DNA from: an uncultured Thermoplasmata archaeon | Lineage (GTDB): Archaea > Thermoplasmatota > Thermoplasmata > Halarchaeoplasmatales > Halarchaeoplasmataceae | Reading direction: 5' to 3' | Length of the DNA: 64,000 nt | NCBI GenBank assembly: GCA_964462425.1 | Contig: CAYWYD010000004.1 | Span: 12,173 to 76,172, forward strand | Part shown: positions 44,626 to 64,000 of the stretch, piece by piece | How the letters are laid out: the number at the start of each line of letters is the position of its first letter | Position numbering within the stretch: the stretch's first letter is position 1 | Translations under genes and position numbers: made by a program | Notes under the pieces: model-generated | Databases searched by the model: none | Told to the model about the DNA's origin: nothing | What the model saw: only the letters and a program-made list of their open reading frames with translations

Positions 44626-44631
44626 TGCACC

Positions 44632-47600: not shown

Positions 47601-50600
47601 CGTCATAATACATCTCCTGCGTCTCCAATTCATCGATATCGGAGGCGTTTTCTCCTTCAACCTCTAAGAAGTTGATCATCACTCTTTCAACACCGACTTC
47701 ATCATCCGCATTGATTTGGAATCTAATCCTTTCATCGACGAAATCGCTTTCGGAAGGTGTTACGATCTCTCCCTCCGGTCCGGTGTTATCAAAGATCACT
47801 TCTACCGATTGCCTAGTTCTCAGACCACCACGGTCGATAGCTTCGAACTGGATTGTGTGTGCTCCGTCAGTGAAATTTGAGGTCTCTATTATAGACGTCC
47901 ATTCCTCATTCCCTTCCTCGTCCATAGCATGCCATCCACTATCGCCCACTCTGTATCTCACGCCAGAGAGGAATTTATCTTCAGCCCGAACTCTCACCTC
48001 GTCTTTTCCGGTCATAATCTTTCCCGCTTCAGGTCCTACTATAGAAAGTGTAGGTTCTTCGTTGTTGACATGGAAATTTATCGGATCTAATTCAATTTCC
48101 CATCCGGCATTATCCTTGATGGTAGCTGAAATGTTGTAAGTACCATCCTCTATAGTGGTGGTTACCAAGACAAGCTCGTACATCCCCGTTCCAGAATTAT
48201 ATTCAGCCGTATAGGTCTGATTGAACACATCAACCTTCACCTGGTCTATACCGTTTTCATCCTCTGCGGAGATCTGGAATATGAAACTACCACTTACGTA
48301 CTCTCCTCCAAAGGGCGAAGCTATCGAGCCGCCCGGTTTTTCATTATCAACGATTATATCGATAGAGTCCATCGTCTGGTGGCCTATCTCATCCACAGAG
48401 CGAACCTCGATCCGGTGGTGTCCTTCACTGAATTTGGTAGTGTTCCAATAGGCGGTTGAATAGTTCTCTTCTATATCCATCTCGTTCCAGCTACCCCCGT
48501 CTATCCTATAGTGGGAGTTCTTCAAAAATTTATCATGAGTGGTAGCGTTTATTTCTATTTCACGGTCGATATAATCACCCTGGTTGGGAGCTACGATATC
48601 TACCGCTGGATTCGTATTATCAACAGAGAAGTTGACCGCGTCTACCACCGTTTCCTTCCCGGAATCATCTTTTACCGTAGCTTCGATAGCGTGATCTCCA
48701 TCTTCCACAGTGGTGGTTATGATACTCTTTTCATAAAAGCCAGTACCTTGATTAAATCCTGCGGTATAATTCTCTCCGAAAACATTTATGCTTACAACAT
48801 CCACACCGTTCTCGTCATTAGCAGAGACCTGGAATGTATATGTACCCTGGATGTCTGCATCGGGATTGGGTGATATTATGGATGCGGTTGGATTTTCATT
48901 ATCCACGATCACGTTAATATTCTGCATGGTGCTCTTACCCGAGTCGTCCATAGCTCTCACGTGAATCTGGTGTTCTCCCTCGCTGTAATCGCTGGTATTC
49001 CATTCGTAGGTCCATAAATTGTTTGATTCTTCCATCGCCTCCCAGGTACCTTCATCTATCCGTGCTTCGGCGGAATCGAGATACATGTCAGTGATATTCG
49101 TCTCGACAGATACATTCCCGGAGACATACGAATTGGGAGTCGGATTCACAATAGATACTGCCGGTGCACTATTGTCCACGCTGAAGGTTACATCACTTGT
49201 GGTATATGTCCATCCCACTTCATCTTCTATAGTAGCGTTTACAGTATACTCTCCGTCGTCTATCGAATTGGTGTCGATGCTGTACTCATAATAACCTGTT
49301 CCTTCGTTGTAAGTCGCGGGATAGATCCCACTAAAGACTTTTATCTCGACACTTTTTACCCCCACCTCATCGCTCGCTGTTATACGGAACGTGTACTCTC
49401 CGCTGATGAACTCTCCATTTAGAGGTTCGACTACAGTTCCTGTCGGGGCGGTGTTGTCGACCTTTACATCTCTACTGACTTCAGTTTCATGTCCGACCTC
49501 GTCTACCGCCCTAAATGTCAAAGTGTGGGGTCCGTCGGGGACCGCGGTCGTGTCCCAGTCGGCTGTATAGTTGTCTAACGTTGTATTTTCTTCCATGGTC
49601 TCCCAAGCACCGTCATCAACTCTATATTCGACAGTTTCGAGGAAGTCGCTCTCTACTTCCGCCTTCAAGGTATGTGTATTTTGGAGTATCTGGCCCGCCT
49701 GTGGAGAATGGATGGTCATGGAGGGAGGTGCATTAGCAACTTGGAAATCGACAGACTGATTCTGGCTGCTGTGCCCAACTCTATCCCATCCCTGCATATG
49801 GGCCGTATAATTCCCGTCGGAGACAGTAGAGGTTCTAAACGTCCTTTCATAATATCCGGTTACTTCGTTAAATACCATCGATGTAGTCGATCCAAATACG
49901 GTTATATTCACTCTATCCATTTTGACGGTATCCTCCGCAAGAGCCTGGAATTTATACTGACCCTGGATCGTTTCTCCATTAACTGGTGAAACGATATCCA
50001 AACTGGGAGGATTATTATCTACGTAAACCGTAGTCGAAGACTGTCCAGACAGCCCGGCTTTATCGGTAGCCTCGATAGTAATATCATGTAATCCGTCGCT
50101 TACAGAGGTAGTATCCCATTGAGCGAGCCAGGATATTGAATTCCCCCCCTCATTATCGATGATCATAGGCTGCCAAGCCTGCTCATCTATTCTGTACTGA
50201 ACGTCGCTAATCTTCTCACTAGTATTGACCCTGATTTCGATCGCGTCATTCACATACTCGTGATCTGATGGAGAAAGTATCGTAGGGTTTGGAGGTGTGT
50301 TTTTAGTCTCAAAGGTCACTGGTTTAGAAGTGTAGCGAGCTCCATCCGTACCCACTACTGTAGCTTTGACCGTAGAGATACCATCAGGATATCCAGTGGT
50401 GTCTACATCTCTTTCCCACAATCCGGATGTAGTAGAATAAGCTCCAGATAAAGTACCGAGTGTTGATAGGTTCCCCCCGAAAGTAAACCTTACTTCATCG
50501 ATAGTTCCCCCATCATATGAAGCATCGGCTTGGAAAGTATATTGGCCCGAGATTAGTTCATCCTCTATAGGAGAGTACATCCCCGCGTTTAAACCCGTGG

Positions 50601-52152: not shown

Positions 52153-52358
52153 AAAAAACACCACATTAATTCACTACAATATTCCCATGATTTAAGTTTT
52201 TCTTTAACAATTTTCGAATGTTGTATTCCGGAAAAATTTCGTTAAGTTGTTCGGAAAATACACATATCTCCGAATAAACAGTAGAACTCCTCGATATATT
52301 TGAGGAAAATAATCTGAGAAAAAATAATAAAAAAAAGAAAAGGATTTTTGACCTGTTT

Positions 52359-55300
52359 TTACTCCTCCTCACCGAATCTTTCTTTAAATTCCTCATCGAG
52401 TTCTTCATCAAGTACTTCCTGGTCAACGGGTTCTTCCTCTTCAACAAATTGCTCTTCGTACGGTTTCTCTTCTGGTCCTACTTCCCCGTAATCCTCGGAA
52501 TAATCTTCGGTAGGTTCTTCAGTAAATTCTTCTTCCTGAGGTCCCTGGTCAAAGGTTTGTTCTCCTTCATCAGATGGTGGAGGAGGTTCCTCGTACAATC
52601 CCTCCATCTGCTCGTCCGCCGGTCCTTCATCCTTTTCCCTGCGGAGTAAAACCAATACCAGCACGATTATGGCCGCTATGATGAGGATGAGTATCAACCA
52701 CCAATAACCACATAAAACAGACATCACACCGCCAGCTCCATCGTCATCAGCTAGAGTAGTAACTTGTACCGCGTCACTTTGATCGTCGTCGCTCGCGACC
52801 TCAAGTTCGTATTCACCTTCTGCCTGAGGTTCCCATGTGAATTTGTCTTGCTTTTCTTCTCCAGGCCCAAGAGTAAGGGCTACAGAGTCTACCGAGACAC
52901 CGTCCACATAGAAAACTATCTGTTGAGTATCTTCAACACCACCTGTATTCGTGACTTTGTATTCTAAACTGACTTCTTCGCCTTTTTTAACTTCGTCTTC
53001 GTAGTTGGTGATCTCGACCGAGAAGTATGCTGAGGCCGGTTCCTCTTCGAAGTGAGCCGTTACCTCCTTGTCACTATCCAGAGTTATAGTTATCTCCGGA
53101 TCTTCCTCTCCATCTTCGGGATAATCGCCTACCCAGTGACTGAACTGCCAATCAAGGTCGGGTACAGCTTCGATAGTGACTTCTTCTCCCATAGGATGGG
53201 TATATGTGTCAGGTGTAGGATCTGTACTTCCACCTTCTTCCGCGTTTATAACCAGTTCATATTCCGTTCCAACTTCTTCGAATTCTGCCGTGATAGTGTA
53301 GTTACCTTCCATCGTTATCGTTGTTTCGTTAGCTCCCGTATCATCGATGTTTTCAACGTCACCTATCCATTCGCTGAATTCATAACCTTCATCAGCTAAC
53401 GCCTCTAAATCCACGACTTCGCTTGAATTGTATTCGAAAGTCCTTTCTCCTGGCACCACCACTTCTCCGCCCTCTGCCGAGTTTATGGTGAGTTCGTATT
53501 TTACAACGGAACTTTCTTCCCCGAAATGAGCCGTTACGTTCTTATCGCTGTTCATCGTTACAGCTATCTCGTTTTCCGTTCCTTCGTAATCCCCGGTCCA
53601 CTCGACGAAGTACCAACCTTCACCCGCCATTGCCGTGATATTCACTTCTTCGCCTTCTTGGTAGTTGTGCATACCCTCGGAGGGTTCTGTGGTGCCTTCT
53701 CCTTCGATGTTGATAGTTAGAGTGTACTCTTCAGGCTGTTCAGATTCTACCGTCAGAGTTGCTTCATCGGTGAAATCTTCTCCTTCATAAGTGTATGTTC
53801 CAGTTACCGTCCACTCGCCGACATTTTCAGAGGTGTATACATTATCGTTCCAGCTACCACCTGCCCCAGACTCTATAGACCACACCGTATCCCCAGTAAT
53901 CTCGTACTCGCTATTCTCCACATCGTAGGCAGTGGCAGTATATTCCTGTGAAGACCCGGCAGTCAGGTTAGATTCTTGCGGAGAAATTTCGATATGATCG
54001 ATATCGGCAGCTTCAACGGTCAATAACGCCTCATCAGTTAAGGTGGTACCGTTAGATGTGTAAGTTCCGTTCACGGTCCAATTACCCTCGTTCTCAGATG
54101 TGTAGGTATTCTCATTCCAGCTACCACCTGCCCCAGCCTCTATAGACCAATCGACTTCTCCGGTAACTTCAAAATCGTTATTATATGTATCATATGCTGT
54201 AGCTGTGTAGCTGATACTGTTGCCCGGGAGTATAGATACTTCATTTGGTTCTATCTCTATACTCTCAGCCTCCGAAGGTTCTACTATCACTGTAGTCGGG
54301 TCGGAAGTGAGTCCTTCATAAGTCGCTGTTACCTCGTAATCCCCGACCGTTCCTCGAGAGAAAACACCGGCCGTAGCGTTCTCCCAATCGAACGCAGCAA
54401 CATCGTCTGTTATCAATTCATCATCTTGATCATAAGCTTCTGCATTGAACTGTAATTCTTTTCCCGCTTCTATCGTCTGATCGGTATCCGGATAAATCAA
54501 AACCTCGGCTACATTAGTGGTATCGAAATCGGCAGTTATGGAATACTCACCTTCGATCCTTATAGTGGTTTGATTAGCTGTAGTATCGTCTATTGTTTCA
54601 TTGTCTCCTGTCCACTCGACGAAGTAGTAGTCTTGAGCGGCTACAGCTTCAAGATCAACTATCTCCCCTGAGTTGTACTCGAACGTGTCTTCCCCGGGCT
54701 CGCTCACGGAACCACCATCTGTCGAGGATACGGTTAGATTGTAAGTAGTTATCTCGAACCCCGCAGTGATTGAATAATTATCTAGCATCTCTATATCCGT
54801 CTGATTCGACTCAGTACTTCCAATCGTTCCGGTATCTCCCGTCCACTCGACGAAATGGTAATCCGGATCTGCTACCGCCTCGAGATTCACTATCTCTCCG
54901 TCTTGGTAACCGAAGGTCCCTTCTCCCGGTACCGCAACGTTACCTCCTCCCGTCGAATCAATCGTCAAAGTGTAATCAGTCTCCGCGAACTCGGCTGTTA
55001 TGGAATAGTTATCCTGCATCTCTATACTCGTTTGATTTGATTCCTTATCGACTATAGTTCCGGTATCTCCCGTCCAATTGACGAAGTGATAGCCATCGTC
55101 CGGGATCGCCTCTAGATCCACGACTTCACCCGGAATGTAAGAAAAGGTCCCTTCTCCCGGTACCGCAACGTTACCTCCTCCCGTCGAATCAATCGTCAAA
55201 GTGTAAGAGATCACGGTCACCGTGGTGATCGGAGAGGTCATGCCGTCATATGTTGCTGTCACGTTGTAGTCTCCAGCAGTGGTCTCGTAGAAGACCCCCT

Positions 55301-58300
55301 GCGTCGCATTCTCCCATCCAAAATCATCAACATTGTCCGTTATCAAATTGCCGTACGTATCCTTGGCCTCTGCATCAAACAACAGTTCTTCTCCAGCGTA
55401 CACTACCTGATCCGCTTCCGGATAGATCGAGACGGTATCTACTGCTCCTGGCTCTACCGTTAATGAGGCGTTATCGGTAAAGATCACTCCGGTTGCATTT
55501 TCGTATTCACCCGTGATATTCCACTCGCCCGCCTCTTCGACCGTTGTTACGTTATCAGTCCAAGATGAACGATCTGTAGGCTCAACATTATCAGACCAAG
55601 TCGTCCCGCCAGTAACGTCGAACCCATTGTCCCATTTGTCATATGCTGTAGCGGTGTATCCCTGAGTCGCTCCAGCTGTGATCGACGCTGTCTGCGGGGA
55701 TACCTCTATATCTTCCGCATCTGCCGGCTCCACTGTAACAGTAACAACACTTGAGGTCACGCCTTGATAGGTCGCGGTCACGTCATAATCGCCCGCTACG
55801 GTTTCGTAGAAAACTCCGATATCGGCGTTCTGCCAGTTGAAATCTTCTGGATTATCGGTGATCAAATTACCGCTTCCATCATAAGCCTCAGCATCGAACT
55901 CTAATTCCTTTCCAGCCTCTATTAATTGGTCAGTATCAGGATAGATCAGTACATTAGACACGTCGGTAGTACCAAAATTGGCCATTATCGAATAATTGTC
56001 ATTCATCGTTATCGTAGTTTGATTAGACGTTGTATCTCCTATAGTATTATTGTCGCCTGTCCATTCAACGAAATAATAACCTTCGTCGGGTCTCGCTTCG
56101 AGATCTACAACCTGACCAGCACCGTACTCAAAAGTGTCCTCTCCAGGAGTCGTCACATTACCTCCAACGGTCGAATCTATCGTCAATGTGTAATTGATAT
56201 CGGTGAATTCAGCCGTTATCGAATAATTGTCATTCATCGTTATCGTGGTCTGATTAGACGTGGTATCTCCTATCGTATTATTGTCGCCCGTCCATTCAAC
56301 GAAATAATAACCTTCGTCAGGTCTCGCTTCGAGATCTACAACCTTACCAGAAGTGTACTCGAACGTGTCCTCTCCAGGGGTCGACACACTACCTCCGGCG
56401 GTCGAATTTACCGTGAGATTATAAGTTTCTTGAACAGTTTCCCCAGTCACTTCGATATCAATATGATCAGCAGATTCGGTACCCCAATTGCCTGCAGAAT
56501 CCTGACCTCTAACCCAGTACCGGTAAGTTCCTCCAGTTGCCCAGTGATCCGGGACTGTTAAACTTTCAGCTTCTGCTATTTCGGTTGAACTGCTGCCGGA
56601 TATCGTCATGCCTGAAGCTTGGGACCAATCTATAGTGCTAGGGTCAGTGACGGTGGTATCCGTTTCGACATACTCCGCCGTCTGTATCCCGCTCCGACCG
56701 GTCATAGTATCATCAATACTAGCGGTCAGATTGAAATTATTGTCAGTCGACATATTCACGGGATTCGGATTTGAGGACACATGAGAGGTATCAGGTCCTT
56801 GAGTGTCGGGTTCCGATTTCCAGTCGGAATGTAGAATAGACAAAAAGACTTCGTGGTCTACATCACGTGTGGTTCCTTGAGATGAATGATAAGCCACATA
56901 GGCATAACTTGTACCATCTATCGTCTGGGAAGCCATATTCGGATTCAATTTCCTGTAATTATCGCGAGTCACATAATCGACCGTTACGCTACTATATTTA
57001 TCATTACTCCTTGCGACATTTATGTTAGGAACATCGAATGGAGTATCGGTCTCTAGATAAGAAGTCCATATCCAGCCGTCATTTCCAGCCGTTTTTCCTA
57101 AAATGTCAGCTCCGCTCATGTCTTCCTGTGAGACAGCCTTTCCCGCTACATTATCATATGATGTAAAATCGCTCTCTGCTGGGGGATTCGTTGAAGAGTA
57201 ATCCCCTGTAACATAAGAGGTAGTCAGATCATTGAAATCACCTGCGTTATCGTAAATGCAGCTCATATATACTTCGTTCGTCCCACTGTTGTTATAGTGA
57301 GCTGCCATCGGGAACTGGTGATTGTCGACAGGATCACCGGTAAGATCTCCGGCCACTTTCACTTCACTACTCCACCCGTCGTTGTCCTGTAACATCGTCA
57401 CGACCATCCTTTGATTTCCACTGCTATCTCTATAATAGAAGAAATGCCAATTTACGTCGTTCTGGTCCGTAACGCCGTTAGGGAAGAAATAAAAGTAACC
57501 GCTACTTCCATCAGCTCCCGGAACATCATTAGCACTATTCCAGGTCTCTCCTCCATCACTAGAGGTGACATATGCGATTCCAATATTGCTGGCTTTTCCA
57601 CTCGAATCCATATCAAGGTGTTCAAAAACATATGTCAGTTCTCCATCAGCGGTACCATCGTCTCTGAACAGCATGTATGAACCCCTCTTCATGTTGACGG
57701 TATCGGTCCCATAATTGTTATCTATCTGGACTGGTCCGTTCCACGTATCGTAGGCTCCGGTATCCGCCCATGCGGCTTTGGCTTCGTACTCGTCTCCGCC
57801 GCTTCCGGGTGTCTGCCCGTTCCAGTAGACAACCACTCGATCCTGATAAGTTCCCGAATCGATGTGCTGTAATTGCACGTAATTCGGATCGACCGTTGGA
57901 TTGGTAGACATCGGATTGAATGGGCCTTGCCATTGTATGGGTTCGCCATTTGTATCCAGCTCTGAATATTTCACCCTGACCTGTTTACCGTCTGGTGTGA
58001 CCATCTGATATGCGGCGAATATCCAGTTCGTTCCCCCTGAATCAGCAAATGTGATTATCTCAGGGAACATCTCATCCGCATCTGATTCCGCGAGCTTCTT
58101 CCTCTCGGGCAGCGGTTCAGTCAATATCTGGATGGTCATCTGTATGGTGTCAGAAGCGGATGGACTCGAAGGATCATCCTGAGAAACTGCGGTTATCTCG
58201 AATTCGATGACCTGTTCAGCCAATCCTGTGTTGGCCGTGATCATAACGTCTGTATTGGCTTTCTCAGTGCTTTCCAGTGAAAAACTTGATTGTGGACTAT

Positions 58301-60797
58301 ATGAAACAGTTAAGTCAGCTGGAGAAGAGTCACTTACTTCTATGGTATCCGGATTAGTACCCCAGTTGGTAATTTCCACCGGAAGATGTGTAGTTCCTCC
58401 CGAGGCAAGGCTTTGGGTAGTTGGATAATCCGTAGTAAGATCGACATTATAATCGTCCTGCGGGCCAAAATCCGCAGAGGTTACTAAAGCAAAATCTGCA
58501 TTAGAAGGAATACTATCAGCTTGAACCGTGAGTGTCCATGTGCCTGGTTCAGGATCCTTAATTTCTATCCTTTGCACCGTATTGACCGTGTCTATCGTCG
58601 AACTTCCCGGGGTAGTCCAACCGTTTTGATCATAGTTATCCACTCCTGAATAGTAAGTATTTCCATTCGGTGACTCAGCGTACATGTGAAGTTGCCTGTT
58701 CATCTCCATACCGGAGCTGTCCAACCAGTTGAGCGTAGCCTTGAAGGGCTCGTCGTTAGATGCGATCTCGAGGTTCATCCCTCCATCTGCTGCTGCATCC
58801 CAAGTACCAGTCTGATCAAAAGTCCCTTCAGCGAACTGATTGCTTCTCGGGGCTGATGGGAATAAGGATTTCCTCAGATTGGGCCGGCCCCAACCCTGAG
58901 CGTACCCAGGATACTCATAGAGATCTGGGTCCATCCTCTCGGCACCATTTATCATCGTAGCTTTTACTAAAGGATTAGTCGGATTTTGAATGCCATGCAT
59001 CTCTTTATAATACTCCCGGATCAAAACAGCCATCCCCGCTGCATGGGGTCCTGCCATCGAGGTGCCCTGCATGTACTGATAATCTGGGATCCCATCTGAC
59101 CCTTCTCCCGGTATAGACGTATCATACTCATCTACTTCCGTGATATAAGAGCTCTGATTCTGACCGTCATTGGCTTCATGTTCTCCTCTAGCTAGTGCGG
59201 AAATCATCGCGGTGCCTGTAGTCACCACATCTGGTTTTATCCTGCCATTAGAAAAACTAGGTCCACCTCTACTGCTGAAATCAGCAACATAATCAGGATT
59301 ATCGGCATTGTGATACTCGCCAGGTCTATAATTCTGACTCGCACCTACAGCTATAGTGTTCTTCGCCATCGGCCTGGGCGTCATAGTATGTTCATCGGGT
59401 CCCTCGTTTCCGGCGGAGAACATGATTATATTCTCAGGAGCGCCATTCATAGCACTGCTAGAATAGGGATCCATCCTATCATCTACATCTATCGAATTCG
59501 AGTCATAATCCGCTGGATTTTGCGCTCCCCAACTGTTCTGGAAGACTCTAGCACCGTCGGATTCCTGTCCGTCCCAGTATCCATGACTGGTGGATAACCC
59601 TCCAAAAGAACTAGTACATCCATCGAGAGAGAATTCCACCTCGGGAGCGACACCTGCGGCTTCCCCGTGATGCCATTCCCTAGTTGATGGGTCTAAGCCC
59701 ATATGATTTTTCCAGTTATACTCGTTACCTCCCACAATACCAGCGACATGGGTCCCATGAGCAACACCTGAGTTTTGTCCATCTGGATCTGAAGAACCAG
59801 TCTGGTCCGTGTATCTTATCACCCTATCTCCACCGGAACCTTTAAAGAAATCTGGATTTCCATCGTCTCCATTATAAATCTCACCTTCATCGAAGCCCGT
59901 ATCCTGGATACCGACCACCTCGCCTTCACCAGTCAATTCAACGGGGAGTCCGCTCCAGGAAGGGTACCACCCAGATTGGATCTCATGGATTTCATTAGCT
60001 GCGTTATCCTTGGTTTCGGGATAGCTGTACGGATCTATCCTTCTTACCTCTTCTAATCCAGCTATATCCGGGATCCGTAAAGGATCAACATTCACAATAG
60101 GACCTGTCGAAGTCTCTCTTTCGATGTCTATTCCCATCTTTTTTAGCTTTTCTCCGATCTCATTATCGGCTTCCTGATCCCATCCAGTAATCTTCACTAA
60201 TTCTTTTTCTTCCTCAGAACCGATCAAATCATCAGAAACTTTGTATCCAGAGTAATATGGACCTACCCATTCAACTATATCTAGCTCTTTAACTTGGGAT
60301 TTTGTCTCTTGATCCATACGCACTAACAGAGCATAATTAGCCACCTCTCGTTCTACCGAAGCACCGGTCTCGCTTATCTGTTCTTTCCACTCCATAGATT
60401 TGGCGGGCCCTACAAACTGTACAATATATGCTCCAGTTTTTTCGCTGTATTCCGCTGGTAAATCCGGAGTTCCTTCTCTCCTGTCAAAGGACTCTCTTAT
60501 CGTATCTAAATATATATCGTATCTAGAATCATCAATCCCCTCGCGGTCAGAAATTCTTTTTATATCCTCAGCTCGCCTTTCGGGGACCTCTACGAGATAT
60601 CTCCCATTCTCATAGTCCACTAAGATTTCCGTGTTTTCCTTTATATATTCCACATTTTGTTCATTTCCGACTTCAACAAGTACCTTTGTTTTTTCTCTTT
60701 CATCAATTCCCATCGCAGTAACCGTCAATGTCGAGAAAACCAGTATGGCAACCGCAAATATTGAGACAATAATCTTTCCTTTTAGAATTTCCATCAT
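52359..60797 (-). CDS. giant (2812 aa) membrane-anchored subtilisin-like serine protease (peptidase S8) with InlB-B-repeat-like, Big2-like and CARDB-like domains
   Basis: Signal peptide MMEILKGKIIVSIFAVAILVFSTLTVTAMG. Catalytic triad motifs VVGIQDTGFDEG, HGTHVAGIVGG and GTSMAGPHAAGMAVL. At least 12 repeats of Y.LT..S..GG.V..PGE.TF.Y..G..VDLEA.PD.GY.FVEWTGD. Big2-like VTVEP...I.ISP....L.AG.SQ.YTA.AYD. CARDB-like YKVTNTGGVEDTQQIVFYVDGV. TM WWLILILIIAAIIVLVLVLL. Acidic tail. A GGAGGA Shine-Dalgarno sits 8 nt upstream of the ATG. Confidence 0.85.
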   Translation of the reverse strand: MMEILKGKIIVSIFAVAILVFSTLTVTAMGIDEREKTKVLVEVGNEQNVEYIKENTEILVDYENGRYLVEVPERRAEDIKRISDREGIDDSRYDIYLDTIRESFDRREGTPDLPAEYSEKTGAYIVQFVGPAKSMEWKEQISETGASVEREVANYALLVRMDQETKSQVKELDIVEWVGPYYSGYKVSDDLIGSEEEKELVKITGWDQEADNEIGEKLKKMGIDIERETSTGPIVNVDPLRIPDIAGLEEVRRIDPYSYPETKDNAANEIHEIQSGWYPSWSGLPVELTGEGEVVGIQDTGFDEGEIYNGDDGNPDFFKGSGGDRVIRYTDQTGSSDPDGQNSGVAHGTHVAGIVGGNEYNWKNHMGLDPSTREWHHGEAAGVAPEVEFSLDGCTSSFGGLSTSHGYWDGQESDGARVFQNSWGAQNPADYDSNSIDVDDRMDPYSSSAMNGAPENIIMFSAGNEGPDEHTMTPRPMAKNTIAVGASQNYRPGEYHNADNPDYVADFSSRGGPSFSNGRIKPDVVTTGTAMISALARGEHEANDGQNQSSYITEVDEYDTSIPGEGSDGIPDYQYMQGTSMAGPHAAGMAVLIREYYKEMHGIQNPTNPLVKATMINGAERMDPDLYEYPGYAQGWGRPNLRKSLFPSAPRSNQFAEGTFDQTGTWDAAADGGMNLEIASNDEPFKATLNWLDSSGMEMNRQLHMYAESPNGNTYYSGVDNYDQNGWTTPGSSTIDTVNTVQRIEIKDPEPGTWTLTVQADSIPSNADFALVTSADFGPQDDYNVDLTTDYPTTQSLASGGTTHLPVEITNWGTNPDTIEVSDSSPADLTVSYSPQSSFSLESTEKANTDVMITANTGLAEQVIEFEITAVSQDDPSSPSASDTIQMTIQILTEPLPERKKLAESDADEMFPEIITFADSGGTNWIFAAYQMVTPDGKQVRVKYSELDTNGEPIQWQGPFNPMSTNPTVDPNYVQLQHIDSGTYQDRVVVYWNGQTPGSGGDEYEAKAAWADTGAYDTWNGPVQIDNNYGTDTVNMKRGSYMLFRDDGTADGELTYVFEHLDMDSSGKASNIGIAYVTSSDGGETWNSANDVPGADGSSGYFYFFPNGVTDQNDVNWHFFYYRDSSGNQRMVVTMLQDNDGWSSEVKVAGDLTGDPVDNHQFPMAAHYNNSGTNEVYMSCIYDNAGDFNDLTTSYVTGDYSSTNPPAESDFTSYDNVAGKAVSQEDMSGADILGKTAGNDGWIWTSYLETDTPFDVPNINVARSNDKYSSVTVDYVTRDNYRKLNPNMASQTIDGTSYAYVAYHSSQGTTRDVDHEVFLSILHSDWKSEPDTQGPDTSHVSSNPNPVNMSTDNNFNLTASIDDTMTGRSGIQTAEYVETDTTVTDPSTIDWSQASGMTISGSSSTEIAEAESLTVPDHWATGGTYRYWVRGQDSAGNWGTESADHIDIEVTGETVQETYNLTVNSTAGGSVSTPGEDTFEYTSGKVVDLEARPDEGYYFVEWTGDNNTIGDTTSNQTTITMNDNYSITAEFTDINYTLTIDSTVGGNVTTPGEDTFEYGAGQVVDLEARPDEGYYFVEWTGDNNTIGDTTSNQTTITMNDNYSIMANFGTTDVSNVLIYPDTDQLIEAGKELEFDAEAYDGSGNLITDNPEDFNWQNADIGVFYETVAGDYDVTATYQGVTSSVVTVTVEPADAEDIEVSPQTASITAGATQGYTATAYDKWDNGFDVTGGTTWSDNVEPTDRSSWTDNVTTVEEAGEWNITGEYENATGVIFTDNASLTVEPGAVDTVSIYPEADQVVYAGEELLFDAEAKDTYGNLITDNVDDFGWENATQGVFYETTAGDYNVTATYDGMTSPITTVTVISYTLTIDSTGGGNVAVPGEGTFSYIPGEVVDLEAIPDDGYHFVNWTGDTGTIVDKESNQTSIEMQDNYSITAEFAETDYTLTIDSTGGGNVAVPGEGTFGYQDGEIVNLEAVADPDYHFVEWTGDTGTIGSTESNQTDIEMLDNYSITAGFEITTYNLTVSSTDGGSVSEPGEDTFEYNSGEIVDLEAVAAQDYYFVEWTGDNETIDDTTANQTTIRIEGEYSITADFDTTNVAEVLIYPDTDQTIEAGKELQFNAEAYDQDDELITDDVAAFDWENATAGVFSRGTVGDYEVTATYEGLTSDPTTVIVEPSEAESIEIEPNEVSILPGNSISYTATAYDTYNNDFEVTGEVDWSIEAGAGGSWNENTYTSENEGNWTVNGTYTSNGTTLTDEALLTVEAADIDHIEISPQESNLTAGSSQEYTATAYDVENSEYEITGDTVWSIESGAGGSWNDNVYTSENVGEWTVTGTYTYEGEDFTDEATLTVESEQPEEYTLTINIEGEGTTEPSEGMHNYQEGEEVNITAMAGEGWYFVEWTGDYEGTENEIAVTMNSDKNVTAHFGEESSVVKYELTINSAEGGEVVVPGERTFEYNSSEVVDLEALADEGYEFSEWIGDVENIDDTGANETTITMEGNYTITAEFEEVGTEYELVINAEEGGSTDPTPDTYTHPMGEEVTIEAVPDLDWQFSHWVGDYPEDGEEDPEITITLDSDKEVTAHFEEEPASAYFSVEITNYEDEVKKGEEVSLEYKVTNTGGVEDTQQIVFYVDGVSVDSVALTLGPGEEKQDKFTWEPQAEGEYELEVASDDDQSDAVQVTTLADDDGAGGVMSVLCGYWWLILILIIAAIIVLVLVLLRREKDEGPADEQMEGLYEEPPPPSDEGEQTFDQGPQEEEFTEEPTEDYSEDYGEVGPEEKPYEEQFVEEEEPVDQEVLDEELDEEFKERFGEEE
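54200..56440 (-). repeat. intragenic in-frame tandem DNA repeats with 231-bp (77-codon) period, several units >90% identical
   Basis: Example: 55985-56215 vs 56216-56440 (ttatcgaataattgtcattcatcgttatcgt...ccattcaacgaaataataaccttcgtc...). A 66-bp exact copy occurs at 54913 vs 55144 (aaggtcccttctcccggtaccgcaacgttacctcctcccgtcgaatcaatcgtcaaagtgtaa). These encode the InlB-B-like modules. Confidence 0.8.
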
Positions 60798-60813
60798 TTT
60801 TTTGTCCTCCTAA

Positions 60814-63800
60814 TTAAAATAAAGAAAGGGATTTGGTTGTAGCCAAAGTTTTATCTGCCACATTCCTTACTTTTCCAATCTCACTAAGTCCTCCTTCGCC
60901 CTCGGGAATAACACTCTTTTCTGTCACTAGCCCTGTATCGTCTAACTCAGCTGATCGCTTTTTTGCCTGTACTTCTTCTACGATGACAGTCGTCGAAGAA
61001 CTCACGCCATTATAAGTTGCACTAACGGTGTATTCATCGGGTGTGTCGTAGTAGAAAACGCCTCTAGTGGCGTTCTCCCATTCGAACTCTTCCACATTAT
61101 CGGCTATGATATTGCCGAGAGTATCATAGGCTACAGCGGAGAATTCGATCTTCTCGCCGGAAGTTATGGTTTGATCTGCGGAAGGTGTCAGTTCAACTGT
61201 ATCTATAGTAGCGGGGTTGACCGTCAATAAACTCGTATCTGTCATTCCATTGTAATCTCCTGAAACGGTCCAATCACCTGTTATTTCAGAAGTATAGTCA
61301 CTCCCAGTCCAGCTACCTCCTGCTCCGTTTTCTATAGTCCAGGTCGTATCGCCTGTCATGTCTCCGATCTCGTTCTTGTATTTGTCGTAGGCTACTGCAG
61401 TGTAGGTCACGCTGTTCCCAGCCGTTACTGTTTCTTTCTCAGGACTAATCTCTATCCGATTCGCCTCTCCAGGTTCTACGGTTACTCCTGTTGGGGCCGA
61501 GGTAACGCTCTGATAAGTAGCTGTAACTTCGTAATCTCCTGCTTTTCGGCGGTTGAACACACCTCTCGTCGCGCTTTGCCAATTGAAATCGATCCTATCG
61601 TCCGTTATCAAGTTACCTCCTTGGTCGTATGCCGCTGCAGAAAACACTAGGTCGTTCCCAGCTTTTACTGTCTGATCTTGAGAGGGGGTTATTTCAACGT
61701 TGTCCACTTCTATAGTGGCAAACTCTGCAGTTATCGTATAATTTCCCTGCATCGTTATCGTAGTCTGGTTAGCCGTCGTATCATCTATCGTATTATTGTC
61801 GCCCATCCATTCAACGAAATAATAACCTTCTTCGGACCTCGCATCGAGGTCTACCATCTCACCAGAAGTGTACTCAAATGTGGCCTCGCCGGGCGTCGTC
61901 ACGTTACCTCCAGCGGTCGAATCAATAGTGAGTGTATAATTTTGTGTTCCTGACTCCGTAGTGAACGACCATGTAGCTGATGTGGTAGTCAAACTTCCGT
62001 CGTCTGCCACCACGTACCAATCGTAGGTAGTATTTGTAGCTAGTCCCGGCCACGTAACCGATGTAGTACCGTTCGTCACTCCGGTGTTCTGTCCTATCTG
62101 ACTACCATCTGAATCATCGTAGAATGTCACTGTCATGGAGTCACCGTCGGGATCTGAAACATCTACGCTCAGCGTCGGATCAGTGCTTATACCCGTCGCT
62201 CCACCCCCTGGGGATGGATTCGTCGGTTCTGCCGGCGCGGAGTTATTCGATTCACCGGGCTCAGGGACCGCATTGGTATTGCCGTCCTCATTACCTATAT
62301 CATCTTCCGCCCTTACAACGTACCACCATCTAATTCCGTCCGGTTCACCTTTATCTTGATCCCGGTAACTGTTAGTGCCCGCCGAGACACTGGTTAAATA
62401 ATTGCTACTATCCCAGGGTCCTGTTTCACTATCTGACCTATAAATATTATACTGAACTACGTCGTTCTCTCCGGCTCCGTCATCAGGGGATAAAGTCCAA
62501 TTCACTAAGTTGTCTTCCGTTCCATTCACGGCCGTGCCTTCAAGGAAGGCGTTATCCACGTACCAATCATTTAAGTCGTATGCATATCCATCAACCGTGA
62601 AACTAACGTAGAATGTGTCGGAACCCATATCAGTAGTTTCTATAGTGACTTCCTCCGTAGTTGGTCCTAGATTTCCATCGCCTGAAGTGTGGGACCACGA
62701 AGTATCATGCCAATTTGTTCCATCTGAGCTTGTCTGTATCTTTATAGTCACCGTATCCGTAGAACTCCCATAATCGTCATAATAATTGTCCCACTGGAAG
62801 TCAAGAGAATCCATACCGGTTGTATCGACTGGACCCCCATATAACCTCCATGTATCTGTACTATCTACGTAATCGAATCGTGCTTCTGGGGATGTCCCGC
62901 CAGCATTATTTGTACTGGATTGCTGCCACTGGCTTCCAGATTGAGACCAATTGGTTGGTGGGAACCCTCCATCAAAACTCTGATTGAGGAAAACTTGATT
63001 CTGGAGTCCAGACCACTCTACGTTAAGATCCGACGGACTAGCCACGCTACCGTCTACACTTGCAGTATCTGTCTTCGTAGCCGAAGAACCATCACCTATA
63101 TCCGCATCATCATAATAGGCGGTGATCGTATCTCCATCAGAAACCTGAAGGACTCCAGTGCTGTCCGTGGCTGATATATCTATTGAACCCTCGAAGATCC
63201 CATCATCCGTCTCTGTCAAAGTTACAGTTTCTCCTGAAGTTTCTGTATCACTGTCTACATCGATATCGAGACTCCCGCTTCCAGTGAGATCACCATCCTT
63301 GACAGTTAAATTAACATTATCTTCACTACTATAAGTGTCCTTTCCTATAGAAATAGTCCCGTTCGAAGGAGCCCTATTCACTCCGCCGCTTACAGTTAAA
63401 GCGAAGGGCTGAGTACTCTCGGGCACTTGGTGAGCACTCACCGTCAGCTCATAATTACCTTCTTGGATTCCATTTTGATTTGGTAAAAGTAAAATATCTT
63501 CTTCAACGTTCAATCCGTCAAACTCAGCAGTCCTCTGCCCGCTCCACGGATTGTCAGTCGGATTAGGCTCAGAATAACCCGGATTGTTTCCCGTGAACGC
63601 GTTCCCTACATACCTCGTACCATCTGGAGCCTCCAATTCAAGATCAAGATCATTGACTATCGCGGGATCACTCGAATCGGATCCTGAAGAACCCGGATAA
63701 TCGGTCCAGGCTAAAGTCACTTCCAATTCCTGAGTCGGATCATCTACGCCGAACTTCATGCTCCAACTTTCACCGGTATCGAGTTCACGGCTTTCGTTCC

Positions 63801-64000
63801 ATGAATCATAAGCTATCAGGTCTCTCGCATCTCCATCAAAATTTAGAACTCTGTCCAATTTGCTCCTGCCATAGCCTTGATCTCCATTAGGGAACCTATT
63901 ATCGTTATTATAAGCTCCACTCCCGGTTATTTCCACAGCACCATTGATTATTGTTGATCTAACAAGAGCATTACTCGGGTTGAAACCGTCCGCATCGGTC
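60814..64000 (-). CDS. second giant subtilisin-like protease paralogue (C-terminal >1060 aa present; N-terminal catalytic domain continues beyond window end)
   Basis: The frame stays open through 64000 upstream of the GTG annotated as the start in the ORF track (in-frame ...TDADGFNPSNALVRSTIINGAVEITGSG...). The visible N-terminal part GDQGYGRSKLDRVL aligns with the end of the S8 domain in the 2812-aa paralogue (GYAQGWGRPNLRKSL). It has the same InlB-B-like and Big2-like repeats and ends in a hydrophobic stretch. The stop lies 16 bp before the next gene's ATG. Confidence 0.75.
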   Translation of the reverse strand, partial: TDADGFNPSNALVRSTIINGAVEITGSGAYNNDNRFPNGDQGYGRSKLDRVLNFDGDARDLIAYDSWNESRELDTGESWSMKFGVDDPTQELEVTLAWTDYPGSSGSDSSDPAIVNDLDLELEAPDGTRYVGNAFTGNNPGYSEPNPTDNPWSGQRTAEFDGLNVEEDILLLPNQNGIQEGNYELTVSAHQVPESTQPFALTVSGGVNRAPSNGTISIGKDTYSSEDNVNLTVKDGDLTGSGSLDIDVDSDTETSGETVTLTETDDGIFEGSIDISATDSTGVLQVSDGDTITAYYDDADIGDGSSATKTDTASVDGSVASPSDLNVEWSGLQNQVFLNQSFDGGFPPTNWSQSGSQWQQSSTNNAGGTSPEARFDYVDSTDTWRLYGGPVDTTGMDSLDFQWDNYYDDYGSSTDTVTIKIQTSSDGTNWHDTSWSHTSGDGNLGPTTEEVTIETTDMGSDTFYVSFTVDGYAYDLNDWYVDNAFLEGTAVNGTEDNLVNWTLSPDDGAGENDVVQYNIYRSDSETGPWDSSNYLTSVSAGTNSYRDQDKGEPDGIRWWYVVRAEDDIGNEDGNTNAVPEPGESNNSAPAEPTNPSPGGGATGISTDPTLSVDVSDPDGDSMTVTFYDDSDGSQIGQNTGVTNGTTSVTWPGLATNTTYDWYVVADDGSLTTTSATWSFTTESGTQNYTLTIDSTAGGNVTTPGEATFEYTSGEMVDLDARSEEGYYFVEWMGDNNTIDDTTANQTTITMQGNYTITAEFATIEVDNVEITPSQDQTVKAGNDLVFSAAAYDQGGNLITDDRIDFNWQSATRGVFNRRKAGDYEVTATYQSVTSAPTGVTVEPGEANRIEISPEKETVTAGNSVTYTAVAYDKYKNEIGDMTGDTTWTIENGAGGSWTGSDYTSEITGDWTVSGDYNGMTDTSLLTVNPATIDTVELTPSADQTITSGEKIEFSAVAYDTLGNIIADNVEEFEWENATRGVFYYDTPDEYTVSATYNGVSSSTTVIVEEVQAKKRSAELDDTGLVTEKSVIPEGEGGLSEIGKVRNVADKTLATTKSLSLF
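61700..61960 (-). repeat. copy of the same 231-bp repeat module inside the neighbouring protease paralogue (direct orientation, about 5.5 kb from the copies at 56.2-56.4 kb)
   Basis: tccattcaacgaaataataaccttc at 61806 matches 56291. The flanking approx. 200 bp are highly similar. Confidence 0.7.

What the first reader, a model, noticed from the sequence alone, without database searches (positions are those of the whole stretch)
52359..64000. Tandem paralogous giant S8 proteases sharing near-identical repeat modules
Two adjacent subtilase genes (2812 aa and >1060 aa visible) carry the same InlB-B-like, Big2-like and CARDB-like repeat architecture and end in a TM anchor with an acidic cytoplasmic tail. 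Stretches of more than 200 bp are near-identical within and between the two genes (231-bp period). This is the architecture of surface proteins that diversify by recombination. Subtilases of this size, type-I anchored with cytoplasmic tails, are unusual.
Basis: seen in the sequence. Interest (0 to 1): 0.7.

Follow-up and report, generated by a model that had tools for sequence, protein, structure and literature searches.

The report
Giant membrane-anchored archaeal surface protease pair
Two neighbouring genes of a salt-loving Thermoplasmatota archaeon encode very large cell-surface subtilisin-type proteases that share one block of stalk domains; this is an unusually large and unusually anchored version of a known kind of protein, not a new kind of system.

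Summary
The ORFs are real, on the minus strand. Gene 1 (52359-60797, 2812 aa) has a Sec signal, a ~260-aa pro-region and a KP-43-like S8 domain with an intact triad (D299/H347/S580). Behind these come a beta-barrel C-domain, an Asp-box region, a stalk of 8 InlB-B-like and 6 Ig-like modules, CARDB, one TM helix and a 94-aa tail (~45% Asp+Glu).

Gene 2 (60814->64000) is cut by the window. Only the last ~44 residues of its S8 domain are visible, so its protease head is inferred from a 72%-identical homologue. It has one InlB-B unit, three Ig modules, no CARDB, no TM and no acidic tail.

The heads are only about 26-27% identical, so they are old paralogues. What the genes share is a ~330-aa cassette (55% aa). 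The 231-bp period is real, but "near-identical" is overstated: 90% over 203 bp within gene 1, 82% over 223 bp between genes, longest exact run 63 nt.

Recombination has modest support. Gene 2's InlB-B unit is closer to gene 1's than to the units of its likely counterpart in another MAG, and that counterpart's stalk carries an M14 carboxypeptidase head.

Best reading: a surface-tethered protease on a probably glycosylated stalk, co-transcribed with an unanchored partner. It is a new variant of a known kind, of modest interest.

The parts
52359..60797 (-). Gene 1: complete 2812-aa ORF for a surface-anchored multidomain S8 protease (stop at 52359-52361)
   Evidence: ORF list and translation. AGGAGG lies 8 nt upstream of the ATG, 16 nt after gene 2's stop. 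A T-rich tract follows the stop. The same 2812-aa protein is on record from one 77,411-bp NCBI contig.
60708..60797 (-). Gene 1 signal peptide, aa 1-30 (Sec type, no twin arginine, no lipobox Cys)
   Evidence: Read from the sequence; hydrophobic windows starting at aa 1-14.
59931..60707 (-). Gene 1 pro-region, aa 31-289, conserved in the family (YIVQFxGPxKxEW ... VxWVG); presumed propeptide
   Evidence: Conserved in alignments A1 and A5 and in P0126. No Pfam Inhibitor_I9 hit and no PDB sequence hit.
58887..59930 (-). Gene 1 S8 catalytic domain, aa 290-637. Codons: D299 at 59901-59903, H347 at 59757-59759, oxyanion N464 at 59406-59408, S580 at 59058-59060
   Evidence: Pfam PF00082, E 4.7e-33. 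D299, H347 and N464 are invariant and S580 nearly invariant in A1. Alignment to KP-43 1WMD, E 2.6e-37. Codon positions checked.
58473..58886 (-). Gene 1 beta-barrel C-domain, aa 638-775 (KP-43 C-domain-like)
   Evidence: The phmmer alignment of gene 1 aa 288-766 covers 1WMD residues 19-424 of 434, including the part C-terminal to the catalytic domain.
58158..58457 (-). Gene 1 putative beta-sandwich (Ig-like) domain, aa 781-880
   Evidence: Conserved in P0001-P0004. Only a weak Pfam FixG_C Ig-like hit, E 0.034. The fold assignment is inferred.
56808..58157 (-). Gene 1 family-specific middle region, aa 881-1330, with one conserved Asp-box (SSDGGETW, aa 1079-1086, nt 57540-57563); possibly a sialidase-like beta-propeller
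   Evidence: The Asp-box is conserved in P0002, P0003, L005 and most family members. The family profile A6 hits GH33 sialidases and BNR proteins in the PDB at E 5e-4 to 1e-2. The AlphaFold model failed (pLDDT 38).
56424..56807 (-). Gene 1 second putative Ig-like domain, aa 1331-1458; end of the core shared with other family members
   Evidence: Gene 1 aa 2-1474 align to the 1678-aa ORF of L005 at 35% identity. Many hits match query aa ~470-596 (gene 1 aa ~1329-1455), often in several copies.
53028..56423 (-). Gene 1 stalk array, aa 1459-2590: F1-F2 (55962-56423), 3 Ig-like modules (55206-55961), F3-F5 (54513-55205), 3 Ig-like modules (53727-54512), F6-F8 (53028-53726). F = 77-aa / 231-bp InlB-B-like unit
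   Evidence: Pfam Flg_new_2, 8 stretches. Unit coordinates and identity matrix. TRF and repeat families. Ig fold from AlphaFold and Foldseek. N-x-S/T sequons: 34 observed against 14.3 +/- 3.2 in shuffles.
52782..53021 (-). Gene 1 CARDB domain, aa 2593-2672
   Evidence: Pfam PF07705, E 1.4e-9.
52644..52724 (-). Gene 1 transmembrane helix, aa ~2692-2718, followed by RREKD
   Evidence: Kyte-Doolittle windows up to 3.63; sequence.
52362..52643 (-). Gene 1 presumed cytoplasmic tail, aa 2719-2812; acidic and Pro-rich, probably disordered
   Evidence: 45% D+E over aa 2720-2812. Cytoplasmic orientation is inferred from the positive-inside rule.
60814..64000 (-). Gene 2: C-terminal 1061 aa of a second S8 protease; the N-terminal ~540 aa lie beyond the window (stop at 60814-60816)
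   Evidence: Frame open to the window edge. aa 3-208 are 72% identical to P0126 aa 542-747, whose S8 domain spans aa 289-583. Many S8-annotated Thermoplasmatota relatives.
63385..63999 (-). Gene 2 end of the S8 domain (aa 1-44) plus beta-barrel C-domain (aa 45-205)
   Evidence: 26% identity to gene 1 aa 605-775, E 4e-8; 52-79% identity to P0123, P0124, P0126, P0127, P0128, P0131, P0134 and P0137 over this region.
61939..63384 (-). Gene 2 middle region, aa 206-687; no Pfam family assigned here; unrelated to gene 1's middle region
   Evidence: Together with the cassette it is 57% identical to P0121 / L086 (gene 2 aa 212-1009). No significant Pfam hit. No blastp match to gene 1 outside the cassette and the head.
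60982..61938 (-). Gene 2 shared cassette: one InlB-B-like unit (61708-61938) and three Ig-like modules (60982-61707)
   Evidence: 55% aa identity over 337 aa to gene 1 aa 1525-1860 and 56% over 276 aa to aa 2019-2292. DNA 82% over 223 bp and 72% over 454 bp. Alignment A4.
60817..60981 (-). Gene 2 short C-terminal tail, aa 1007-1061; no TM and not acidic
   Evidence: No hydrophobic window; 18% D+E and 14.5% K+R. P0121, its likely counterpart in another MAG, also ends in a short non-TM tail right after the last Ig module.

Best explanation
The region encodes two co-oriented, probably co-transcribed extracellular subtilases of a salt-in halophilic Thermoplasmatota archaeon. Its relatives carry the names Ca. 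Saliniplasma and Ca. Natronoplasma, genera of the order 'Ca. Halarchaeoplasmatales'.

Gene 1's product is exported by a Sec-type signal. It folds with the help of a ~260-aa N-terminal pro-region that is then presumably removed. It displays a KP-43-type S8 catalytic domain with a beta-barrel C-domain, followed by an Asp-box region that may be a propeller for binding substrates or glycans. This head sits on a ~1130-aa stalk of 8 InlB-B-like and 6 Ig-like modules plus a CARDB domain. The stalk is probably heavily N-glycosylated. A single C-terminal helix holds the protein in the membrane, with a disordered acidic tail in the cytoplasm. The most likely job is to digest environmental protein at the cell surface, so that the peptides stay near the cell's transporters.

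Gene 2 has an anciently diverged S8 head on a different, anchor-less stalk. It shares only one InlB-B + 3 Ig cassette with gene 1.

The stalk modules evolve by duplication, gene conversion and cassette exchange, and catalytic heads are swapped between stalks.

Shown: domain composition, intact triad, topology elements, repeat structure, family relationships. Inferred: autoprocessing, glycosylation, nutritional role, co-transcription.
For: - Domains and triad of gene 1.
- Signal peptide, TM helix and tail composition.
- Operon-like spacing: a 16-nt gap with AGGAGG before gene 1's ATG, and an oligo-T tract only after gene 1.
- Core architecture (aa 2-1474) is conserved at 35% identity in a Methanomassiliicoccales MAG (L005). 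About 25 family representatives reach E<1e-30 among 1.84 billion proteins, mostly 1.4-2.0 kaa. Most complete-looking members end in a different C-terminal domain with a GWNxVGYP motif.
- Gene 2's head is S8 by homology.
- Heads are 26-27% identical. The cassette is 55% identical in protein.
- Ig fold of the cassette modules.
- Recombination signals: a 63-nt exact tract between F3 and F4, and discordant similarity of the InlB-B unit and the Ig block relative to L086.
- Head swapping: gene 2 aa 212-1009 are 57% identical to P0121, the C-terminal 1038 residues of L086:9800-13117. The Peptidase_M14 domain begins in the preceding ORF (L086:8996-9715) and ends at the N-terminus of this ORF, followed by CarboxypepD_reg.
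- Sequons are enriched in the stalk (34 against 14.3 +/- 3.2) and depleted in the head (4 against 14.3 +/- 3.3).
- Acidic proteins throughout: pI about 4.05-4.2 and 17-20% D+E for the three giant proteins. The salt-in lifestyle of the named relatives is described in PMC11332174.
Against: - No expression, activity or localisation data exist.
- Gene 2's catalytic domain lies outside the window.
- The pro-region gives no Inhibitor_I9 or PDB hit.
- The middle region could not be modelled (pLDDT 38). Its link to sialidases rests mainly on one Asp-box blade at E about 5e-4.
- The gene-conversion argument assumes that L086 holds the orthologue of gene 2's stalk, yet L086 has two InlB-B units where gene 2 has one.
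- A nutritional role is only the default reading for extracellular archaeal subtilases.
- All sequence comes from one assembly. The only record of the protein is a single 77-kb contig that carries several identical proteins of this window and is presumably its source, so the repeat count has no independent confirmation.
Confidence: 0.7

Rival explanations
1. The proteins are primarily adhesins or cell-cell contact proteins. The InlB-B and Ig stalk would be the functional part, binding a partner cell, a surface or a polymer. The protease head would serve processing, maturation or attack on a partner envelope, as proposed for the protease-bearing SPEARE proteins of Nanohaloarchaeota (my own recollection of that literature).
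For: In archaea, Flg_new / InlB-B-repeat proteins have been interpreted as adhesin-like proteins (PMC9723798). Foldseek hits for the Ig modules include the adhesins LigA and FdeC and several S-layer proteins. The next gene downstream is a 2510-aa Ig-repeat surface protein. The Asp-box region may bind glycans.
Against: The catalytic triad and oxyanion Asn are strictly conserved across the family. The conserved part of the family is the head and middle region. The stalk occurs only in this member, so it looks like a spacer added later. The window also holds MutS/MutL, ADP-forming acetyl-CoA synthetase and other housekeeping genes, so this is not an obviously reduced symbiont genome.
Confidence: 0.15
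2. One reading: the two genes are recent tandem duplicates of one giant subtilase gene, kept similar by ongoing recombination. The pair would then be a contingency-type, rapidly varying surface locus.
For: The genes are adjacent, on the same strand and in the same broad S8 family with the same type of pro-region. They share a 231-bp-period unit at 80-82% DNA identity. Gene-conversion-like patterns are present.
Against: Heads are only 26-27% identical. The middle regions are unrelated. The shared Ig block is 49-52% identical between the genes but 71% identical between gene 2 and L086, which places the split before that speciation. No exact repeat exceeds 63 nt, a poor substrate for frequent homologous recombination. 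The protein cluster has a single member, so no variants are on record.
Confidence: 0.07
3. The repeat array, and therefore the 2812-aa size, is an assembly artefact in which repeats were duplicated or mis-joined.
For: Repeats with a 231-bp period can mislead short-read assemblers. Other assemblies that carry identical proteins of this window are fragmented into 2-3 kb contigs. There is no independent assembly of this gene.
Against: The units differ by 10-49% in DNA, with no exact repeat longer than 63 nt, so they are resolvable. An 8.4-kb frame stays open through the whole array with orderly module boundaries. Gene 2's cassette order (InlB-B, then 3 Ig modules) recurs at the end of an independent MAG's stalk, which carries two InlB-B units.
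Confidence: 0.04

Closest known systems
KP-43-type high-molecular-mass subtilisins (Bacillus KSM-KP43 protease, PDB 1WMD; SubHal, 5FAX)
   Same: These are the best solved relatives of gene 1's head. Gene 1 aa 288-766 align to 1WMD residues 19-424 of 434 (E 2.6e-37). The match covers the catalytic domain, with the DTG / HGTH / GTSMA motifs in the same places, and the C-terminal beta-barrel domain.
   Different: KP-43 is a ~43-kDa secreted bacterial enzyme. It has no 260-aa three-part pro-region, no Asp-box region, no stalk and no membrane anchor. Gene 1 also has a ~40-residue insertion before the catalytic Ser.
An unnamed Thermoplasmatota S8 family: P0199-P0231, P0001-P0006, L005 ORF 9968-15004, and L004 (P0002 plus downstream ORF fragments)
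   Same: The same signal, pro-region, S8, C-domain, Ig-like domain, Asp-box middle region and second Ig-like domain over ~1470 aa. Identity is 35-54%.
   Different: Members are 1.4-2.0 kaa. Most complete-looking ones end in a C-terminal domain with a GWNxVGYP motif and have no TM. Gene 1 replaces that domain with a 1340-aa extension made of the InlB-B/Ig array, CARDB, TM helix and acidic tail, and it is the longest member.
Halolysins of Halobacteria (SptA, Nep, R4 and others)
   Same: Extracellular S8 proteases of salt-in halophilic archaea, with acidic surfaces and a C-terminal extension (my own knowledge).
   Different: Halolysins are about 500-550 aa, exported by the Tat pathway and released from the cell (my own knowledge). 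Gene 1 has no twin-arginine motif, is five times longer and is membrane-anchored. Halolysins did not appear among the hits that carry names.
Cell-envelope-anchored giant subtilases: lactococcal PrtP and streptococcal C5a peptidase (LPXTG-anchored), Pyrococcus pyrolysin; eukaryotic furin/kexin and site-1 protease (type-I TM with cytoplasmic tail)
   Same: The same design principle: an S8 head with an accessory beta-barrel domain on a long stalk of beta-sandwich domains, tethered at the C-terminus. Furin even has an acidic cluster in its cytoplasmic tail (my own knowledge).
   Different: There is no LPXTG or PGF-CTERM sorting signal here and no PA-domain hit. Neither the S8B P-domain family (PF01483) nor any kexin or furin structure appears in the hit lists for gene 1. 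The stalk modules are InlB-B-like and Big_2-like rather than Fn3 or A/B domains. The resemblance is functional analogy, not family membership.
Flg_new / InlB B-repeat adhesin-like proteins of host-associated Methanomassiliicoccales and Methanimicrococcus
   Same: Archaeal surface proteins built from arrays of the same beta-grasp-like repeat. The paper reads them as acquired, fast-evolving surface modules (PMC9723798).
   Different: Those proteins are described as adhesin-like proteins of gut archaea, with no mention of a protease head. That paper states that such repeats were known in Archaea only from gut lineages. Here they occur in a halophile (PF18998, a divergent form) and are fused to hydrolase heads of the S8 or M14 type.

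Membership tests
Peptidase family S8 (subtilases), subfamily S8A | Subtilase fold detected by the family profile | tested here: met
   Gene 1: PF00082, E 4.7e-33, covering profile positions 1-288 of 288. Gene 2: no hit, because only the last ~44 residues of the domain are inside the window.
Peptidase family S8 (subtilases), subfamily S8A | Catalytic triad in the order Asp-His-Ser with DTG / HGTH / GTSMAxP motifs, plus the oxyanion Asn | tested here: met
   Gene 1: D299 (IQDTG), H347 (AHGTHVAG), N464 (SAGNEG), S580 (GTSMAGP). D299, H347 and N464 are invariant and S580 nearly invariant in A1, and they align to the same motifs in 1WMD.
Peptidase family S8 (subtilases), subfamily S8A | The same triad in gene 2 | not testable with these tools
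   The residues lie beyond position 64000. The contig could not be retrieved. The proxy P0126 (72% identical over the overlap) has D, H and S at the aligned positions.
KP-43-like subtilisins | Catalytic domain directly followed by a ~120-aa beta-barrel C-domain | tested here: met
   A single alignment spans 1WMD residues 19-424 of 434. This is by sequence only; the structure of the head was not modelled.
Subtilases with an Inhibitor_I9-type propeptide | A PF05922-type propeptide N-terminal to the catalytic Asp | tested here: not met
   No I9 hit for gene 1 aa 1-289 at E <= 1, none for the 8 members of A5 (aa 100-289 and their equivalents in 7 relatives) at E <= 1, and no PDB hit with the A5 profile at E <= 10. 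A conserved pro-region exists, but its fold is untested.
Halolysins | Tat (twin-arginine) signal peptide and a ~500-aa secreted enzyme | tested here: not met
   The signal MMEILKGKIIVSIFAVAILVFSTLTVTAMG has no RR motif. The protein is 2812 aa with a TM anchor.
Archaeosortase (PGF-CTERM) or sortase (LPXTG) substrates | A C-terminal tripartite sorting signal: motif, then TM helix, then a short basic end | tested here: not met
   There is no PGF or LPXTG motif before the helix (…DDDGAGGVMSVLCGYWW…), and 94 residues follow it rather than a few basic ones.
InlB B-repeat / Flg_new_2 repeat proteins | Repeated ~70-77-aa units matching PF18998 | tested here: met
   Gene 1 has 8 units (E 5.6e-97) and gene 2 has 1 unit (E 4e-12). 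The AlphaFold model of one unit was poor (pLDDT <50), so the fold itself is not confirmed here.
Bacterial Ig-like group 2 (Big_2) domains | A match to PF02368, or a Big_2-type beta-sandwich fold | tested here: inconclusive
   Pfam Big_2 reaches only E 0.035, with Big_1 and Big_3 at similar sub-threshold levels. The model has pLDDT >90, and Foldseek top hits include LigA Big_2 (8gyr, E 1.7e-10) alongside Big_1-type FdeC and S-layer Ig domains.
GH33 sialidase / BNR-Asp-box beta-propellers (gene 1 middle region) | Several Asp-boxes on a six-bladed propeller; Arg triad and Tyr/Glu nucleophile for catalysis | tested here: inconclusive
   There is one conserved Asp-box. The family profile hits sialidases and BNR proteins at E 5e-4 to 1e-2, only around that blade. 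The model failed. Catalytic residues were not assessable.

The most novel reading that the evidence does not exclude
Halophilic Thermoplasmatota may use a 'plug-and-display' set of stalk cassettes (InlB-B, Ig and further modules) onto which different hydrolase heads are recombined: two distant S8 types and an M14 carboxypeptidase so far. In this reading the anchor-less gene 2 product docks onto the membrane-anchored gene 1 stalk through their homologous cassette. The result would be a two-protease surface assembly, and the acidic cytoplasmic tail might couple it to something inside the cell.
Probability: 0.12. Interest if true: 0.5.

Novelty: new variant of a known kind. Interest (0 to 1): 0.3.

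Why it matters
The order 'Ca. Halarchaeoplasmatales' is known only from metagenome-assembled genomes (PMC11332174). How these salt-in archaea obtain carbon is inferred from gene content alone.

A 2812-aa, Sec-exported, TM-anchored subtilase, with a co-transcribed unanchored partner, points to cell-surface proteolysis as one of their feeding strategies. It also provides an intact, clearly delimited halophilic S8 head (aa 31-780) that could be expressed and tested.

The locus is a clean small example of how archaeal surface proteins are built. A conserved enzymatic core has received a lineage-specific stalk and anchor. A cassette is shared between neighbouring genes, with signs of localised gene conversion. 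In another genome the same stalk carries a different peptidase head.

None of this overturns current understanding. Its value is descriptive and as an annotation correction: gene 2 is not anchored, and the two heads are not recent duplicates.

Tried and rejected
1. Retrieving the source contig to see gene 2's N-terminus. Exact look-ups of gene 1 (two start variants) and gene 3 (two start variants) found nothing in the contig index. Cluster tables nevertheless show gene 1 on a 77,411-bp NCBI contig.
2. A word-indexed homologue search with gene 1's middle region returned nothing. The exhaustive representatives search later found the family.
3. AlphaFold on the middle region with a 5-sequence alignment gave pLDDT 38, too poor for a fold search.
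4. Looking for an I9 propeptide: Pfam at E <= 1 on gene 1 aa 1-289, Pfam on the 8 members of A5, and the A5 profile against the PDB (aa 100-289) all found nothing.
5. Pfam at E <= 10 on gene 2's middle region and on gene 1 aa 1200-1458 gave nothing meaningful.
6. A literature search for the assembly and run accessions found no paper.
7. Gene 3 as a third paralogue: rejected. It shows no blastp similarity to genes 1 or 2 at E <= 1e-3 and has no S8 domain.
8. The antisense ORFs at 53052-53399 and 55926-56561 (+) lie inside the coding repeats and are treated as spurious.

Full report
WHAT IS THERE. Positions 52359-64000 hold two minus-strand ORFs. Gene 1 runs 52359..60797 (2812 aa). Gene 2 runs from 60814 to beyond 64000; 1061 codons are visible and the frame is open to the window edge. 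Sixteen nucleotides separate gene 2's stop from gene 1's ATG, and an AGGAGG lies 8 nt upstream of that ATG. A long T-rich tract appears only after gene 1. Co-transcription is therefore likely, but it is an inference.

Directly downstream on the same strand lies a third giant gene, 44632..52164 (2510 aa). It is not a protease and has no detectable similarity to genes 1 or 2.

ORGANISM. The proteins are strongly acidic: pI about 4.05-4.2 and 17-20% D+E for the three giant proteins. The window also carries archaeal regulators (HVO_0163-type HTH), MutS/MutL and an ADP-forming acetyl-CoA synthetase.

Gene 2's closest relatives are annotated as Thermoplasmata or Thermoplasmatota MAGs, including Ca. 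Saliniplasma and Ca. Natronoplasma. Both genera belong to the MAG-only, salt-in order 'Ca. Halarchaeoplasmatales' (PMC11332174).

Identical proteins from this window occur in a fragmented NCBI MAG (GCA_905333235.1) and in two Logan assemblies. Gene 1's exact protein is on record from a single 77,411-bp NCBI contig that also carries several identical proteins of this window and is presumably its source.

GENE 1 ANATOMY, listed from N- to C-terminus (window coordinates are in the parts list):
- aa 1-30: Sec-type signal with no twin arginine.
- aa 31-289: a pro-region conserved across the family and also in the gene 2-type head. It has no detectable Inhibitor_I9 domain and no PDB sequence relative.
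- aa 290-637: Peptidase_S8, E 4.7e-33. The catalytic residues are D299, H347 and S580, with oxyanion N464, each in the canonical motif.
- aa 638-775: a beta-barrel C-domain. Head and C-domain together align to the KP-43 protease 1WMD, residues 19-424 of 434, at E 2.6e-37.
- aa 781-880: a putative Ig-like domain.
- aa 881-1330: a family-specific region with one conserved Asp-box, SSDGGETW. A 12-sequence family profile hits GH33 sialidases and BNR proteins at E 5e-4 to 1e-2, but only around that blade. The AlphaFold model was unusable at pLDDT 38. A sialidase-like propeller is a lead, not a result.
- aa 1331-1458: a second putative Ig-like domain.
- aa 1459-2590: the stalk, in the order F1-F2, three Ig-like modules, F3-F5, three Ig-like modules, F6-F8. 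Each F is a 77-aa (231-bp) Flg_new_2 / InlB-B-like unit.
- aa 2593-2672: CARDB, E 1.4e-9.
- aa ~2692-2718: a transmembrane helix followed by RREKD.
- aa 2719-2812: a 94-aa tail; aa 2720-2812 are 45% Asp+Glu.

The Ig-like modules fold confidently (pLDDT >90). They resemble LigA Big_2 domains, FdeC and S-layer Ig domains, although Pfam Big_2 reaches only E 0.035.

N-glycosylation sequons are twice as frequent as expected in the stalk (34 against 14.3 +/- 3.2 in shuffles). They are strongly depleted in the head and middle region (4 against 14.3 +/- 3.3). This fits a glycosylated spacer that carries a sequon-poor enzymatic head.

GENE 1 IN ITS FAMILY. An exhaustive search of 1.84 billion representatives with aa 860-1458 found 95 proteins at E <= 1e-3 and 25 at E <= 1e-30. 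The full-length members are 1.4-2.0 kaa and carry the same region at the same position. Those checked have an S8 domain at about aa 290.

Most complete-looking members end in a different C-terminal domain containing a GWNxVGYP motif and have no TM helix. A Methanomassiliicoccales MAG (L005) encodes a 1678-aa member that aligns to gene 1 aa 2-1474 at 35% identity.

Gene 1 is therefore a conserved ~1470-aa core to which this lineage has added 1340 aa of stalk, CARDB, TM and acidic tail. It is the longest member and the only one with an InlB-B array. It is one of only two of the 34 members scanned with a C-terminal TM helix.

GENE 2. Visible aa 3-208 are 72% identical to aa 542-747 of P0126. P0126 is a 1200-aa Thermoplasmata protein that ends about 150 nt before its contig end, and its Pfam S8 domain spans aa 289-583. 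The window therefore shows only the last ~44 residues of gene 2's S8 domain plus its C-domain. About 540 residues, including the triad, lie outside the window (inference).

The rest of gene 2 is a ~480-aa middle region with no Pfam assignment, then one InlB-B unit and three Ig-like modules. It ends in a 55-aa mixed-charge tail with no hydrophobic segment.

The missing anchor is not an artefact. P0121, from another Thermoplasmata MAG, aligns to gene 2 aa 212-1009 at 57% identity and also ends in a short non-TM tail right after the last Ig module.

HOW THE TWO GENES RELATE. The heads are distant. Gene 2 aa 7-205 are 26% identical to gene 1 aa 605-775. Gene 1's first 800 residues are 27% identical to P0126 over 738 aligned positions, although the pro-region, S8 and C-domain follow the same layout. 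The middle regions do not match at all.

The shared part is one cassette of an InlB-B unit plus three Ig modules. It is 55% identical over 337 aa to gene 1's first cassette and 56% over 276 aa to the second.

At the DNA level the best matches are 90% over 203 bp (F1 against F2 within gene 1), 82% over 223 bp and 72% over 454 bp (between the genes). The longest exact repeat is 63 nt. 'Near-identical' is therefore too strong, and the genes are not recent duplicates.

EVIDENCE FOR RECOMBINATION. Three observations bear on this.
1. F3 and F4 share a 63-nt exact 5' tract while the units are only 76% identical overall.
2. Gene 2's Ig block is 71% identical in protein to its L086 counterpart but only 49-52% to gene 1's Ig blocks. 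Its InlB-B unit shows the reverse: 80% DNA and 74% aa identity to gene 1 F1/F2, against 65-68% DNA and 64-68% aa to the L086 units. This discordance is what a ~230-bp gene-conversion event between the neighbouring genes would produce. The caveat is that unit orthology is uncertain, because L086 has two units and gene 2 has one.
3. In L086 the same stalk follows a Peptidase_M14 domain (E 8e-52) and a CarboxypepD_reg domain instead of an S8 head. Heads have therefore been exchanged on a conserved stalk.

MOST LIKELY FUNCTION. Gene 1's product is most likely a type-I membrane-anchored, surface-displayed subtilase. Its head would be held well away from the membrane on a probably glycosylated stalk of 15 modules. 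It would degrade extracellular protein close to the cell. Gene 2's product would be a second, unanchored subtilase made from the same transcript.

The domain content, triad and topology elements are shown. Autoprocessing, glycosylation, orientation and the nutritional role are inferred from what is known of subtilases and of protein-degrading Thermoplasmatota.

The main rival is an adhesin-type role for the stalk, with the protease as an accessory (confidence about 0.15). The recent-duplication reading and the assembly-artefact reading are both unlikely, for the reasons given under the rival explanations.

COMPARISON WITH KNOWN SYSTEMS. By sequence, the head belongs to S8A and is closest to KP-43-type enzymes.
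- It is not a halolysin: there is no Tat signal, and the size and anchoring are different.
- It is not a sortase or archaeosortase substrate.
- It has no demonstrable I9 propeptide.

By design it resembles the cell-envelope proteinases PrtP and ScpA, pyrolysin and the type-I convertases such as furin. This is analogy only, and rests on my own knowledge of those proteins.

InlB-B / Flg_new arrays in Archaea had been described as a feature of gut-associated lineages (PMC9723798). Finding them in a halophile, fused to peptidase heads, is a small extension of that picture.

VERDICT. This is a new variant of a known kind, the giant surface-anchored subtilase, in a poorly known archaeal order. Interest is modest (0.3).

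Noticed in passing
window 39320-52164 (-): Gene 3 (44632-52164, 2510 aa) is a surface protein with 11 Big_7 matches plus Big_13 and OmpL47-type barrel domains and a TM helix (hydrophobic windows starting at aa 2300-2311). Its Lys/Glu-rich cytoplasmic tail ends in a helix-hairpin-helix domain like the RNA polymerase alpha CTD (aa 2409-2474, Pfam E 4e-8; NCBIfam rpoA E 1e-9 to 2e-10). It is followed by a VWA protein (43222-44625, 6 nt between the ORFs) and a 1301-aa double-AAA Cdc48-like ATPase with a ~740-aa N-terminal extension (39320-43225, 4-nt overlap). An HhH domain on the inner end of a giant surface protein, in an apparent operon with VWA and AAA+ genes, is unexplained.
   Followed up: partly
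L086:8996-13117 (+) (Thermoplasmata MAG GCA_046538555.1): The counterpart of gene 2's stalk carries a Peptidase_M14 head that is split by a single in-frame TAG at about L086:9716. This could be a sequencing error, a pseudogene or a recoded codon. The deposited gene call starts downstream of it and misses the peptidase domain.
   Followed up: partly
window 53028-60707 (-): N-x-S/T sequons are unevenly distributed in gene 1. The stalk (aa 1459-2590) has 34, against 14.3 +/- 3.2 expected. The head and middle region (aa 31-1458) have 4, against 14.3 +/- 3.3 expected. Gene 3's ectodomain is also enriched (47 against 24.3 +/- 4.2).
   Followed up: partly
L004:993-8186 (-) and L005:931-8274 (-): In two contigs that carry the closest recovered homologues of gene 1 (one from a Methanomassiliicoccales MAG, one from a JGI metagenome), the homologue lies divergently next to another ~2400-aa protein. 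That protein combines WD40 propellers, a Peptidase_S8 domain and Glucodextran_B domains, and in L004 an AttH-like gene lies between the two (L005's intervening 473-aa ORF was not scanned). Pairs of giant S8 proteins may be a recurring feature of this lineage.
   Followed up: no
P0199-P0231 (relatives; not in the window): Many members of gene 1's family, and most of the complete-looking ones, end in a conserved ~120-aa C-terminal domain with the motif GWNxVGYP ... GYW. No Pfam family was reported for it in the five members scanned (P0199-P0202, P0205). It may be their cell-surface attachment module, which gene 1 has replaced with a TM anchor.
   Followed up: no
window 60708-60797 (-) and 52087-52164 (-): Both giant surface proteins of this presumed salt-in halophile have Sec-type signal peptides with no twin-arginine motif. 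Halobacteria export most secreted proteins through Tat (my own knowledge).
   Followed up: no
window 55926-56561 (+) and 53052-53399 (+): Antisense ORFs of 211 and 115 aa lie wholly inside gene 1's coding repeats. They are most likely spurious.
   Followed up: no
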